This document shows positions 21,005 to 44,651 of a stretch of DNA of 45,537 nucleotides, piece by piece (the first letter of the stretch is position 1; every line of letters starts with the position of its first letter). The translations under genes were made by a program, and so were the position numbers. Source of the stretch: Puia sp. (GTDB taxonomy: Bacteria; Bacteroidota; Bacteroidia; Chitinophagales; Chitinophagaceae); the NCBI GenBank assembly GCA_035485835.1, contig DATHNR010000301.1:1-45537 (forward strand). Direction: 5' to 3'. Under the pieces are notes generated by a model that was not told the DNA's origin, searched no databases, and was given only the letters and a program-made list of their open reading frames with translations.

Positions 21005-21427
21005 ATGGCAAAATCCGCTAAGAAATCAGCAAAAAAATCAGCAAAAAAAGCGCCCAAAAAAGTTGCAAAAAAGGCCGCAAAAAAAGCAGCACCTAAAAAA
21101 GCCGCAAAGAAAGCAACAGCAAAAAAAGCAGCACCTAAAAAAGCTGCTAAGAAAAAAGCTGCTAAGAAAAAATCAGCCCGCAAGCCAAATGCAGCATTTA
21201 TGGTGCCACTGACACTAAGTGATGCACTATCCAAAGTCGTTGGAAGCAAATCACTTCCCAGGACCGAGATCATTAAGAAAATTTGGGTTTACATCAAGAA
21301 AAATGATCTTCAGGATAAAACGAACAAACGCATGATCAACGCCGATGCAGCACTGAAACCCATTTTTGTAAAAGATCAGATTTCCATGTTTGAAATGGCT
21401 GGTGCTTTGAATAAACATGTAAAATAA
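21005..21427 (+). CDS. Histone H1-like Lys/Ala-rich N-terminus fused to a SWIB/MDM2 domain
   Basis: About 58 aa of 'AKKA/APKKA' repeats, then 'NAAFM.PL..S..L..VVG...LPRTEIIKKIWVYIKKNDLQD..NKRMINAD'. Confidence 0.93.
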   Translation: MAKSAKKSAKKSAKKAPKKVAKKAAKKAAPKKAAKKATAKKAAPKKAAKKKAAKKKSARKPNAAFMVPLTLSDALSKVVGSKSLPRTEIIKKIWVYIKKNDLQDKTNKRMINADAALKPIFVKDQISMFEMAGALNKHVK

Positions 21428-41538: not shown

Positions 41539-42906
41539 ATGGATATAAAAAATAATATTCTTGAAACGATCGGCAATACGCCACTTATCCGCTTAAATAA
41601 AATTACACGGGATATTCCTGGTACCGTCGTAGCCAAAGTTGATTATTTCAATCCCGGTAATTCCATTAAAGACCGGATGGCCGTAAAGATGATAGAAGTA
41701 GCCGAACAGGAAGGCAAACTTAAACCTGGTGGAACTATCATTGAATGCACCAGTGGTAATACGGGAATGGGTTTAGCGTTGGCAGCCATCATAAAAGGAT
41801 ATAAATGTATTTTTACCACTACCGATAAACAATCGAAAGAAAAATCAGATATCCTCAAAGCAGTAGGTGCAGAGGTAATTGTTTGCCCTACAAACGTAGA
41901 ACCAGATGATCCACGAAGCTATTATTCCATTGCCCGGAGACTAGCTAAAGAAATTCCAAATTCGTTTCATTGTAATCAATATGACAATCTTGCAAACCGG
42001 CTTGCTCATTATGAAACTACTGGCCCTGAAATCTGGAAACAAACAGATGGAAAAATCACACACCTTGTTTGTACAGCCGGAACCGGTGGCACAATTACAG
42101 GAACTGCGATGTATTTAAAAGAAAAAAATCCTGCAATACAGATATGGGCGATCGATGTTTTCGGATCACTGCTGACAAAATATTTTAACACAGGGGAGAT
42201 TGATATGAATGAAGTACATCCATATGTATCAGAAGGTTTTGGAGAAGATTTTGTTCCAGAAAACTACGATATGTCTGTAATCGACCATTTCGAGCAGGTT
42301 ACTGATAAAGCAGGCGCAATAATGGCCCGTCGTCTTGCTAAAGACGAAGGATTATTTTGCGGATATAGTGCGGGAAGTTGTCTACAGGGATTAATGCAAT
42401 TAAAAAATAAATTAAAAAAAGACGATTTGGTCGTTTGTATTTTTCATGATCATGGCAGCCGCTATGTTGCAAAAATCTATAATGATCAGTGGATGATGGA
42501 ACGGGGGTTTCTTGATGTTAAAACCTTCCGCGATATAGTCAATTCGCGTGGTAATAGTATACTGGTAACACTCAATCCCGAACAAACCGTTGGCGAAGCT
42601 TTTGACAGGATGAAAGAATTGCATATTGAAAATATTCCTGTTGTAAAGGAAGGCATACCAGTAGGCGCTGTAAGTGAAAGTGGTTTATTCAATATTATCC
42701 TAAGCAATGGATCCGATATCAGACATAAAAAAATTCATGAAGTAATCGAAGCTCCTTATCCTGTTGTTTCTTATGATACTCCGGTCGAAAGAATCAACTC
42801 ACTCATAAGTAAAGAGAATGGCGCCGTACTCGCAAAAGATGATAGCGGCAACTTTCATATAGTGACAAAGTATGATGTGCTTCAGTCTTTTACTCACAAG
42901 TCATAA
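41539..42906 (+). CDS. Cystathionine beta-synthase / cysteine synthase family PLP enzyme with C-terminal CBS pair
   Basis: 'IGNTPL', 'NPGNSIKDR', 'TSGNTG', 'HYETTGPEI', 'GTGGT'; CBS domains at the C-terminus; -7 element TACATTTG at 41527-41534. Confidence 0.9.
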   Translation: MDIKNNILETIGNTPLIRLNKITRDIPGTVVAKVDYFNPGNSIKDRMAVKMIEVAEQEGKLKPGGTIIECTSGNTGMGLALAAIIKGYKCIFTTTDKQSKEKSDILKAVGAEVIVCPTNVEPDDPRSYYSIARRLAKEIPNSFHCNQYDNLANRLAHYETTGPEIWKQTDGKITHLVCTAGTGGTITGTAMYLKEKNPAIQIWAIDVFGSLLTKYFNTGEIDMNEVHPYVSEGFGEDFVPENYDMSVIDHFEQVTDKAGAIMARRLAKDEGLFCGYSAGSCLQGLMQLKNKLKKDDLVVCIFHDHGSRYVAKIYNDQWMMERGFLDVKTFRDIVNSRGNSILVTLNPEQTVGEAFDRMKELHIENIPVVKEGIPVGAVSESGLFNIILSNGSDIRHKKIHEVIEAPYPVVSYDTPVERINSLISKENGAVLAKDDSGNFHIVTKYDVLQSFTHKS

Positions 42907-43025
42907 ATTATAATACTGCACGTAAATCTACTATTCTCAGAACTCGTTAAACTACCAGTTTCTGGGTAAATCATGAACTGTTAAAATCAGGCAAAAAGGC
43001 TATTGTTGTTAATATGTGTATAAGT

Positions 43026-43033
43026 TAATTTTG
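43026..43033 (+). promoter_or_regulatory. -7 promoter element ahead of the repeat-rich non-coding stretch
   Basis: TAATTTTG matches TAnnTTTG, about 500 nt upstream of the next CDS. Confidence 0.55.
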
Positions 43034-43039
43034 ATAGTG

Positions 43040-43480
43040 AAGTTGATTGATACATACTCAATCCCGACGATATCCAAAAACCGGCCAAAGTTCTTTATCC
43101 AATATCCAATAGAATTTCCGAGTAAAATCCGATATCAGTCAACTTCTTTTTTCTTACCCTGCGAAACCGAATCCGATCCTATTTGAAAAAGCGCGGTCCT
43201 ATTTTGAAAAACCTATCCTGTAAGAAAACCTGAACCTTTCCTAAATAATCAAACCTATCCTGTAGAAACCAATTCCAATTCCGAAGAGGAAATTCAAATC
43301 CTGTCCAAAAACTGATCCCGGCACTGAAACCGACCTTATTCCTTAAATCTGATCCTTGAAACAACCACCCTGAAGTCCAATTCCATGGGGAAACCGGTAA
43401 CAGTTCCAGTACCCGATTTTAGAACAAACTGTTTATCCCGCGTCCTCCTGCTAAGTTTTCAAATAATTTAGCAGGGGGCA
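43040..43480 (+). ncRNA. Candidate ~440-nt motif-repeat non-coding RNA or long 5' leader (strand not certain)
   Basis: 25 TCC vs 2 GGA in 43062-43448; repeated AAACC..TCC units; closing hairpin CCTCCTGCTAAG/TTTAGCAGGGGG at 43444-43478. Confidence 0.5.
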
Positions 43481-43544
43481 CCCATAGGAGGCTAAAGCCG
43501 GTAGCTATTAGCCTAAATAAATGATCTTTGTCCAAAGATTAATA

Positions 43545-44651
43545 ATGAAGTTTTCATTCGACGTTAACACGCCGGATAATAATCAAACAAATAAGCCTTC
43601 CAGGAAGAAACCTATTTTCCCTGTAAATGATTTACTACGGAATTATCTCCAGCTCCACGGTCGTGAAGTGAAATTACCTGTTTCATATAATGACCTGCTT
43701 CATGTTGCCTATGCAGTTCCTTTAAAAGACAAAAATGGCAAAGACAGTCTATGGGAAACCGTTTCTTATGACATGCAACACTGGCAATATATCCGGTCAG
43801 GACTGGTAAAAATGTATGCTATATTAAAAACTGAGGGCGATCTGACTTTCAGTAAACATCTTGACGTAGCCCGAGTGGATTTCTGCAGCTTTGCTAACTC
43901 AAGTCCTTTCAGGATACGAATCGTTAATAAATTCAATGACAACTACGATCATTTTTATATCAAACAGGCAGATGCATCTCGCGTATATGGTCTCGAACTG
44001 GAACATCTGTTATCTCCAAACCGAATCAGCTTTTTCACTCATCAGCAAACACTGATAGAAGACCATATACCTGGCATACCTGGCGATATTTTCATTATGC
44101 ATTATTTAAATGAGCCAATTACCAACCGTATACGTTTTGCAAAAGAGTTTGTGAAATTTAACGAACGTTGTTTTGTACGTTTACTCGGTGATATGAGATC
44201 CTATAACTTCGTTGTGGATATTACTCCGGATATTGAAGATTTCCAATATCGTATCCGGGCCATAGATTTTGACCAGCAGTCTTATGAAGGAAGAAAAAAT
44301 ATTTATTTGCCACAATTTTTTAAAGAGAATAAATCTCTGGTTGACATCTGTATTAAATATTTAAACGAGGATTCTATTACTCAGTATCAAACAGAAGAAA
44401 GGACAATGATGGCATTTCGCGTTGCTTCTTCAAGATTCAGACTGATGCATCTCCTGAATATTATGTCGACCGATAATATATCAACGCCCGAAAAACTTAT
44501 CCAACTGCGTGAAGAGCTCTCCTCGGAATTCCAGGCCCCTGTATTTCTGAAATGCCGGTCAATGGGCCAGCTGGTGAAAAGGCAGTTAAAACAAACCTTG
44601 CAAAAAAATCTGGCATTGATCCAAAAAAACCTTGGGAAATTCCAGGACTGA
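43545..44651 (+). CDS. Hypothetical protein with atypical-kinase-like (PI3K/HipA-like) motifs
   Basis: Long ORF (start 43521 or 43545); 'FYIKQ', 'LLGDMRSYNF', 'IRAIDFD'. Confidence 0.8.
   Translation: MKFSFDVNTPDNNQTNKPSRKKPIFPVNDLLRNYLQLHGREVKLPVSYNDLLHVAYAVPLKDKNGKDSLWETVSYDMQHWQYIRSGLVKMYAILKTEGDLTFSKHLDVARVDFCSFANSSPFRIRIVNKFNDNYDHFYIKQADASRVYGLELEHLLSPNRISFFTHQQTLIEDHIPGIPGDIFIMHYLNEPITNRIRFAKEFVKFNERCFVRLLGDMRSYNFVVDITPDIEDFQYRIRAIDFDQQSYEGRKNIYLPQFFKENKSLVDICIKYLNEDSITQYQTEERTMMAFRVASSRFRLMHLLNIMSTDNISTPEKLIQLREELSSEFQAPVFLKCRSMGQLVKRQLKQTLQKNLALIQKNLGKFQD

What the first reader, a model, noticed from the sequence alone, without database searches (positions are those of the whole stretch)
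43026..43480. Promoter-bearing ~400-nt non-coding array of repeated UCC/GGA motifs: candidate protein-sponge RNA or Rho-loading leader
Seen: between the CBS-like gene and the kinase-like gene is a stretch with no credible ORF. I count 25 TCC but only 2 GGA on the + strand in 43062-43448; base composition predicts roughly 4-5 of each. Many motifs recur as (G)AAACC-N-(A/T)TCC-like units (AAACCGAATCC, AAACCTATCC, AAACCAATTCC, AAACTGATCC, AAATCTGATCC). There is an exact 14-mer duplication AAACCTATCCTGTA (43209-43222, 43251-43264) and a near-exact TCCTATTT(T)GAAAAA pair (43177, 43197). The stretch starts just after a TAATTTTG -7 element and ends in a 12-bp hairpin (43444-43478). Established: CsrB/RsmZ (GGA repeats) and CrcZ are RNAs of similar design that titrate an RNA-binding protein, and C-rich, G-poor unstructured RNA is what Rho loads on. 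Inference: (a) a + strand sRNA with many UCC sites titrating an unknown Bacteroidota RNA-binding protein (RRM, cold-shock or Rho); (b) a Rho-controlled leader of the downstream gene; or (c) a minus-strand CsrB-like RNA, which would be surprising because CsrA is not a typical Bacteroidota protein and I see no minus-strand promoter.
Basis: partly seen in the sequence, partly recalled or inferred. Interest (0 to 1): 0.85.

Follow-up and report, generated by a model that had tools for sequence, protein, structure and literature searches.

The report
UCC-repeat decoy RNAs in soil Bacteroidota
This stretch is one copy of a multi-copy family of UCC-repeat non-coding elements in Chitinophagaceae bacteria, most with a shared promoter signature; they are likely small RNAs switched on by a dedicated signalling protein and likely soak up a still unidentified RNA-binding protein, which would make them an independently evolved counterpart of the Gac/Rsm switch in a group where its usual protein was not found.

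Summary
Observation confirmed: 25 TCC and 2 GGA, the richest 387-nt window of the assembly. It is one member of a family with no Rfam match: 1-5 copies in 91 of 301 Chitinophagaceae genomes, five further look-alikes in this genome, and tandem arrays elsewhere. Most copies have a Bacteroidota promoter, a conserved upstream box, an optional 5' stem and an unstructured body of UCC doublets and GAAAA-CC tracts whose number scales with length. Promoter side, G·U wobbles and U-tailed terminators of paralogs all put the RNA on the UCC strand. Many copies lie head-to-head with one clade of NarL/GacA-type regulators, found in 40 of 40 RNA-positive and 0 of 40 negative genomes (kin, not independent). 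CsrA, Hfq and ProQ were not found in five complete carriers. Best reading: redundant protein-decoy sRNAs forming the output of a two-component system, like GacA to RsmY/Z but with a different motif and partner (0.65). The partner was not identified, no mRNA target enrichment was found, and transcript ends and strand are not shown by reads. A minus-strand CsrB and a leader of the downstream gene are poorly supported.

The parts
42949..42977 (+). Upstream box, a variant of the family consensus TTTACGA-N8-GTAAATACCGA; predicted binding site of a NarL/GacA-type activator
   Evidence: Conserved at fixed spacing in 118 promoters and in alignment A1; binding not tested
42983..43006 (+). Conserved AAAAT-RGGCAA block and -33 element
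43026..43033 (+). Bacteroidota -7 promoter element TAnnTTTG; predicted start about 43038
   Evidence: consensus in PMC7366714 passages; whole-promoter matrix score 51.7, best in the genome (close homologues were in the training set)
43039..43155 (+). 5' module: 14-bp stem (43039-43052 with 43133-43146) closing an 80-nt loop with 6 UCC, then a U-tract
   Evidence: 98.2% of cells paired in 65 members, U-G/U-A and U-A/C-G exchange
43156..43380 (+). Variable, weakly structured body of repeated units (UCC doublets plus GAAAA-CC tracts), including the 14-mer duplication
   Evidence: length 198-603 nt and 10-30 TCC in 50 units with this type of 3' hairpin, r = 0.87
43381..43488 (+). 3' domain ending in a sequence-conserved hairpin (43444-43478) without a U-tail; the true 3' end is not determined
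   Evidence: 13 pairs in 37 sequences; one-sided changes are G-U wobbles on the + strand
41539..42906 (+). Upstream neighbour: PALP + CBS-domain protein (cystathionine beta-synthase-like), the fixed anchor of this paralog
   Evidence: Pfam PF00291 and PF00571; synteny
43545..44651 (+).
   Evidence: No Pfam or NCBIfam hit; neighbour swap; box

Best explanation
The element is one paralog of a multi-copy UCC-repeat family that is likely transcribed on the UCC strand as a 100-600-nt small RNA, is likely switched on by a dedicated clade of NarL/GacA-type response regulators, and likely works by titrating a sequence-specific RNA-binding protein through its many (A/G/U)UCC doublets. Shown: the family, the conserved promoter and its side, the pairing pattern, U-tailed terminators in many paralogs, adjacency to and co-occurrence with the regulators. 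Inferred: transcription as a discrete RNA, activator binding to the box, protein binding. Predicted working: a membrane histidine kinase phosphorylates the regulators, these switch on several redundant RNAs, and the RNAs release the protein's normal RNA targets. The partner is unidentified; it is not CsrA, Hfq or ProQ, and a clade-specific protein outside the Pfam families tested is my first guess, one of the RRM paralogs my second.
For: Stem pattern in 91 of 301 family genomes, 1-5 copies, reversed-pattern control 0. Independent metagenome set oriented only by the wobble in the pattern: 77 of 78 loops have TCC>GGA, 75 of 77 have the promoter upstream on the UCC strand, 0 of 75 on the other side. 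Promoter-only model hits in stem-negative genomes: 23 of 23 scored units are followed by TCC>GGA (mean 9.2 vs 2.0; background 4.1 vs 4.2). The stem is dispensable, while promoter and UCC array persist. Tandem arrays of 2-4 units, each with promoter and U-tailed terminator. Site number scales with length, and no seed longer than a few bases recurs in the body. Copies sit head-to-head with two sister NarL-family regulators. The regulator scores E<=1.3e-63 in 40 of 40 positive genomes and no better than 3.3e-57 in 40 negative ones. Promoter-independent check: 0 of 30 CBS loci from negative genomes carry the array. In this genome the promoter matrix scores above 21 only at two RNA loci, as GacA is reported to act only through its sRNAs (title in a reference list). 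All 8 soil metatranscriptome runs laid hold contigs on the element.
Against: No partner protein found. UCC doublets are not enriched near start codons of this genome (7 of 2930 leaders vs 5.3 +/- 2.2 shuffled; crude start calls). The one candidate leader tested across genera did not keep its UCC. This assembly lacks the regulators (best hits 30-39% identity); the cluster lies 1.7 kb beyond a contig end in a 94%-identical relative, but a second close relative, 91% complete, lacks it too. Positive genomes are kin, so co-occurrence may only mark a clade: an unrelated 84-aa gene shows 26 of 40 vs 0 of 40. RNA contigs give no strand or ends, may include DNA, were chosen with this stretch, and two start 60-70 nt upstream of the predicted start while three cross the 3' hairpin. 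The motif counts use units preselected for TCC content.
Confidence: 0.65

Rival explanations
1. The RNAs are decoys for the termination factor Rho: C-rich, G-poor, unstructured transcripts that load Rho and lower termination elsewhere when the regulators fire.
For: Composition fits a Rho loading site (C 26%, G 13%; Rho's preference for pyrimidine-C pairs is recalled). Rho is in 5 of 5 complete carriers. It would explain the lack of UCC near start codons.
Against: Other pyrimidine-C contexts are depleted (UCA -0.9, UCU -0.7, UCG -1.05, CCC -0.5 log2, vs UCC +1.7, preselected units). The rho upstream regions of 5 carriers hold only 3-8 TCC in 450 nt.
Confidence: 0.1
2. They are base-pairing sRNAs that use UCC as anti-GGA seeds, like the cuckoo RNAs, or mask GGAU sites that RRM proteins bind.
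For: Multicopy sRNAs with a UCC-containing anti-Shine-Dalgarno loop exist (PMC4615179 passages). Bacteroides RbpB binds GUAGGAUA, the complement of this kind of site. The 3' hairpin arm is CCUCCU.
Against: Sites are 3-5 nt in A/U context, too short for a seed. The CCUCCU arm is paired. Start regions are G-poor here (10-13% G at -14 to -7) and Bacteroidetes lack classical Shine-Dalgarno sequences. Hfq and ProQ are in 0 of 5 carriers.
Confidence: 0.08
3. The element is a regulatory leader or attenuator of the downstream gene: the 5' stem plus U-tract or Rho stops transcription unless a ligand binds.
For: Stem plus U-tract resembles a long-loop terminator (70 of 78 have at least 6 T in the next 10 nt). 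This paralog's 3' hairpin has no U-tail, and three RNA contigs cross it. In 3 of 30 negative loci the metal-receptor gene follows CBS within 12 nt, so the unit looks inserted into an operon.
Against: The downstream gene varies. Of 67 metagenome units with enough sequence, 34 end in a U-tailed hairpin, 10 in the CBS-type hairpin, 23 in neither by my crude test. Tandem units have no gene between them. 43 of 60 downstream genes have a -7-like box of their own (no control run).
Confidence: 0.07
4. The functional molecule is a minus-strand CsrB/RsmZ-type RNA with GGA repeats.
For: 25 GGA on the minus strand; a Bacteroides RRM protein binds a GGA-containing motif.
Against: Promoter on that side in 0 of 75 loci; wobble pairs become mismatches on that strand; terminator U-tails are on the UCC strand; CsrA in 0 of 6 genomes.
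Confidence: 0.02

Closest known systems
Gac/Rsm and Csr sRNAs (RsmX/Y/Z, CsrB/C) with GacA/UvrY
   Same: Several divergent sibling RNAs with many short repeated sites, own promoter and terminator, a conserved upstream box, and a NarL-family regulator (the regulator here hits the UvrY/GacA model at 119.6 bits, below its 280 cut-off). The two smallest paralogs here are about 115-120 nt, like RsmY/Z at 118-133 nt.
   Different: Motif is UCC in unstructured A-rich sequence, not GGA in hairpin loops; CsrA not found; no Rfam match; the box differs from TGTAAG-N6-CTTACA; the regulator genes are adjacent to the RNAs.
CrcZ/CrcY (Hfq-Crc decoys; recalled, no call)
   Same: Long, mostly unstructured, A-rich decoy RNA under a two-component system.
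   Different: Hfq not found in 5 of 5 carriers; the repeated unit is UCC-centred.
Cuckoo / CcsR / alpha-r14 RNAs
   Same: Multicopy, modular, C/U-rich repeated motif containing UCC.
   Different: Cuckoo motifs are 9-nt CCUCCUCCC loops on 2-4 hairpins in Alphaproteobacteria; here 3-5-nt sites without carrier hairpins, in a phylum without Shine-Dalgarno sequences.
FopS family of Bacteroides thetaiotaomicron
   Same: Multicopy Bacteroidota sRNA family bound by an RNA-binding protein.
   Different: FopS shares a long seed and base-pairs with mRNA; the Rfam hit here is 20.3 bits against a 56 cut-off, on the other strand.

Membership tests
Csr/Rsm sRNAs | Repeated GGA motifs on the transcribed strand | tested here: not met
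   The promoter-bearing strand has 25 UCC and 2 GGA
Csr/Rsm sRNAs | CsrA/RsmA protein in the genome | tested here: not met
   PF02599 in 0 of 1 own and 0 of 5 complete or near-complete carriers; controls ring
Csr/Rsm sRNAs | Match to an Rfam Csr/Rsm model | tested here: not met
   No such hit at E<=10 around the element; 0 hits at gathering score in 6 paralog loci
Csr/Rsm sRNAs | Activation by a GacA/UvrY-type regulator through an upstream box | tested here: inconclusive
   Conserved box and adjacent NarL-family regulators, but below the GacA model cut-off and binding untested
Csr/Rsm sRNAs | Several redundant siblings with own promoter and terminator | tested here: met
Csr/Rsm sRNAs | Sequestration of a protein shown by binding | not testable with these tools
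   needs pull-down or gel shift
CrcZ | Hfq in the genome | tested here: not met
   PF17209 in 0 of 5
Cuckoo RNAs | CCUCCUCCC loops on adjacent hairpins | tested here: not met
   Body weakly structured (z -0.98); enriched words are AUCC, UCCA, GAAAA
Y RNA / Ro60 | Ro60 (TROVE) protein in carriers | tested here: not met
   PF05731 in 1 of 5 carriers
Rho-controlled leader | Fixed downstream gene transcribed from the same promoter | tested here: not met
   Downstream gene varies; many paralogs end in terminators
Rho-controlled leader | Read-through on Rho inhibition | not testable with these tools
   needs bicyclomycin RNA-seq
Miniature inverted-repeat mobile element | Inverted ends at variable sites, independent of a host promoter | tested here: not met
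   The inverted arms start 4-7 nt after the same promoter in 118 of 118 cases kept (that position was part of the filter), 75 of 77 in the independent set; sites are syntenic across genera

The most novel reading that the evidence does not exclude
One branch of Chitinophagaceae has independently built a whole Gac/Rsm-style switch from unrelated parts: a secreted-peptide-like signal and membrane kinase feed three sister response regulators, whose main output is a set of UCC-repeat RNAs that sponge an undescribed global RNA-binding regulator of Bacteroidota with a new binding code.
Probability: 0.4. Interest if true: 0.92.

Novelty: new variant of a known kind. Interest (0 to 1): 0.8.

Why it matters
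Bacteroidota largely lack CsrA, Hfq and ProQ (passages), and which proteins run their post-transcriptional control is open. A 115-nt paralog with three clean repeats is ready bait for fishing out such a regulator. If the reading holds, it shows that the design two-component system to redundant decoy RNAs to RNA-binding protein has evolved again with a different motif, in common soil bacteria. It also explains why Rfam misses the family: the conserved signal lies in the promoter and in motif density, not in an alignable structure.

Tried and rejected
Rfam: only sub-threshold noise. Sigma-70 promoter and terminator scan: at chance level, wrong promoter type. Coding: the 56-aa ORF is not conserved. 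Mobile element: no plasmid match; the 4 viral-contig pattern hits lack promoter and UCC loop and are chance. Range beyond the family: promoter-model hits outside Chitinophagaceae are all E>=4.7e-5, and none of the 21 such loci read carries a non-coding UCC array; regulator hits above 60% identity occur in 11 of 21 family genomes and nowhere else among 401 phylum genomes, with only 7 candidates scored per genome. UCC RNAs with other promoters outside the family were not searchable: body patterns reached only 3-36% sensitivity. Partner hunt: RRM leaders are U-rich, not UCC arrays (33 read); the RRM gene near the regulator cluster is ribosomal-operon synteny; the two KH_1 hits in this genome lie in long frames of 422 and 525 aa; the 125-aa cluster protein has no Pfam hit and no fold match above Z 3.4. 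Targets: no leader enrichment; two candidates tested across 80 genomes, one genus-restricted, one without a conserved UCC leader. Single-sequence fold of the downstream protein failed (pLDDT 35.7). Four look-ups of earlier findings returned nothing.

Full report
Observation. The counts and repeats are as described and well above chance: 25 TCC against 7.6 and 14.4 in mono- and dinucleotide shuffles, 0 of 2000 reaching it, and the best 387-nt window of the assembly. GGA (2) is what the G-poor composition predicts. Rfam gives nothing above noise. The neighbours place the genome in Chitinophagaceae, near Puia by record titles.

Conservation. The stretch is found by BLAST in 29 of 36 same-genus genomes and 0 of 24 from other families. 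Downstream of the CBS gene, relatives keep one layout: promoter, 5' stem with a UCC loop and U-tract, a middle of variable length, and a conserved 3' hairpin (the output was cut). Among 50 units with this hairpin, length runs from 198 to 603 nt and TCC number from 10 to 30, r = 0.87. The gene behind it is either the unknown protein seen here or a metal-receptor gene. In genomes without the system 0 of 30 CBS loci (28 with 900 nt to read) carry an array, and in three the receptor gene follows CBS within 12 nt, so the unit looks inserted.

A family. The stem pattern occurs in 91 of 301 family genomes, 1-5 copies, with no hit for the reversed control. Other copies lie head-to-head with response-regulator genes, stand alone, or form tandem arrays of 2-4 units, each with promoter and U-tailed terminator; some lack the 5' stem. 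This genome has five more look-alikes, all ending in U-tailed hairpins: C239, C362, C113, C208, C261. C113 and C208 are about 115-120 nt with three AUCC-A-R-UCC plus GAAAGAAA repeats; a complete same-genus genome has two of that type. Six paralog loci gave no Rfam match.

Strand. The promoter consensus is TTTACGA-N8-GTAAATACCGA, an AAAAT-RGGCAA block, a -33 element and TAnnTTTG, the last two matching the Bacteroidota primary-sigma consensus (PMC7366714, passages). In the stem one pair alternates U-G (39) and U-A (26), another U-A (48) and C-G (11); seven pairs never vary and were partly fixed by the search pattern. The 3' hairpin varies by G-U wobbles too. These wobbles pair only on the UCC strand. 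As an independent test, 80 of 122 metagenome hits were fetched and gave 78 distinct elements oriented by the wobble alone: 77 have TCC>GGA loops, 75 of 77 have the promoter on that side, 0 of 75 on the other. Conversely a promoter-only model found 12 more carriers among 80 stem-negative genomes, and 23 of 23 scored units (24 loci, one unscored) lead into TCC>GGA sequence.

Expression. Eighteen soil or permafrost metatranscriptome runs from 18 studies share words with the stretch, two at 0.2 or more. All 8 laid have contigs on it, the best 247 nt with one difference. These are contigs chosen with this stretch: they show presence in RNA libraries, not strand, level or ends. Two begin upstream of the predicted start and three cross the 3' hairpin.

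Regulator. The adjacent regulators are REC + LuxR-type proteins forming two sister groups beside a third that follows a HisKA_3 kinase (tree output partly cut). One was found at E<=1.3e-63 in 40 of 40 RNA-positive genomes (39 at 60% identity or more) and no better than 3.3e-57 in 40 negative ones; strong hits are confined to the family among 401 phylum genomes. These genomes are kin, and the positives were partly defined by the promoter, so this is association only. This assembly lacks the cluster; 4 of 5 close relatives have it, and in the closest it starts just beyond a contig end here. In this genome the matrix scores above 21 only at two RNA loci.

Mechanism. Many short sites, copy number that scales freely, loose structure, redundancy and a dedicated regulator are the design of Csr/Rsm decoys (PMC4211561 and PMC4353343, passages). 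C occurs mostly as exact doublets (2120 vs 968 shuffled), spaced 5-8 nt in pairs, which suggests a protein reading two or three sites at once (units preselected for TCC). CsrA, Hfq and ProQ were found in 0 of 5 complete or near-complete carriers, TROVE in 1, cold-shock domains in 4, Rho in 5; RRM genes occur in 40 of 40 positives and 37 of 40 negatives. Bacteroides RbpB binds GUAGGAUA rather than a UCC motif (10.1101/2021.04.27.441718 and PMC12119571, passages). I found no partner and no target enrichment, which is the main gap. The 5' stem with U-tract may give a short and a long form or protect the 5' end (inference).

Literature. Searches for a description listed none; I saw listings and abstract openings for these, and passages of PMC11697453, PMC12119571, 10.1101/2021.04.27.441718, PMC4211561, PMC5737381, PMC7366714, PMC4353343, PMC4615179 and PMC13443453. 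No supplements were read; motif catalogues in supplements (such as that of PMC5737381) and subscription journals could hold the family. Statements on Rho's preference and on CrcZ are recalled.

Verdict. A real, apparently undescribed sRNA family (about 0.9 that it is a UCC-strand RNA), not a Csr/Rsm member but most likely working like one (0.65). New variant of a known kind; interest 0.8.

Noticed in passing
G000:C113:15110-15240 (-), C208:1095-1215 (+), C362:835-1225 (+), C261:4420-4680 (+), C239:1140-1410 (-): Five further UCC-repeat units with U-tailed terminators in this genome. C113 and C208 have a perfect TCGTAA-AC-TTACGA palindrome upstream; C362 and C261 lack the family box, so other regulators may drive some copies.
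   Followed up: partly
L142:4559-4936 and 18 homologues: A 112-133-aa protein, usually ending in a Trp-containing tail, encoded with a membrane protein, a HisKA_3 kinase and a regulator next to the RNA; no Pfam, NCBIfam or fold match. Possibly a peptide-signal precursor (inference).
   Followed up: partly
G000:C425:5287-5541 (-), L477: Stand-alone 84-aa protein resembling a type IX secretion C-terminal sorting domain, set antisense between two small conserved genes (zapB- and zapA-like, names recalled); full-length in 26 of 40 RNA-positive and 0 of 40 negative genomes.
   Followed up: partly
L174:3000-5200, L111, L112, L113, L137: Tandem arrays of 2-4 complete RNA units between CBS and the metal-receptor gene, each with its own promoter and terminator.
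   Followed up: yes
L261-L264, between regulator and RNA: Several TACG-type half-sites recur upstream of the regulator-divergent copies, suggesting multi-site binding and autoregulation (also peaks at -115 to -104).
   Followed up: no
L182, L269, L276, L279, L282, L291, L295: Leaders of one RRM paralog group share a U-rich element with repeated CTGCTA words; possibly an autoregulatory RNA motif.
   Followed up: no
L187, L246, L252, L259: A distinct paralog class near lysS/lptC-like genes (names recalled) shares a GTAC-containing 3' element instead of the CBS-type hairpin.
   Followed up: no
window 21005-21427 (+): 140-aa protein of Lys/Ala repeats, histone-H1-like by recall.
   Followed up: no
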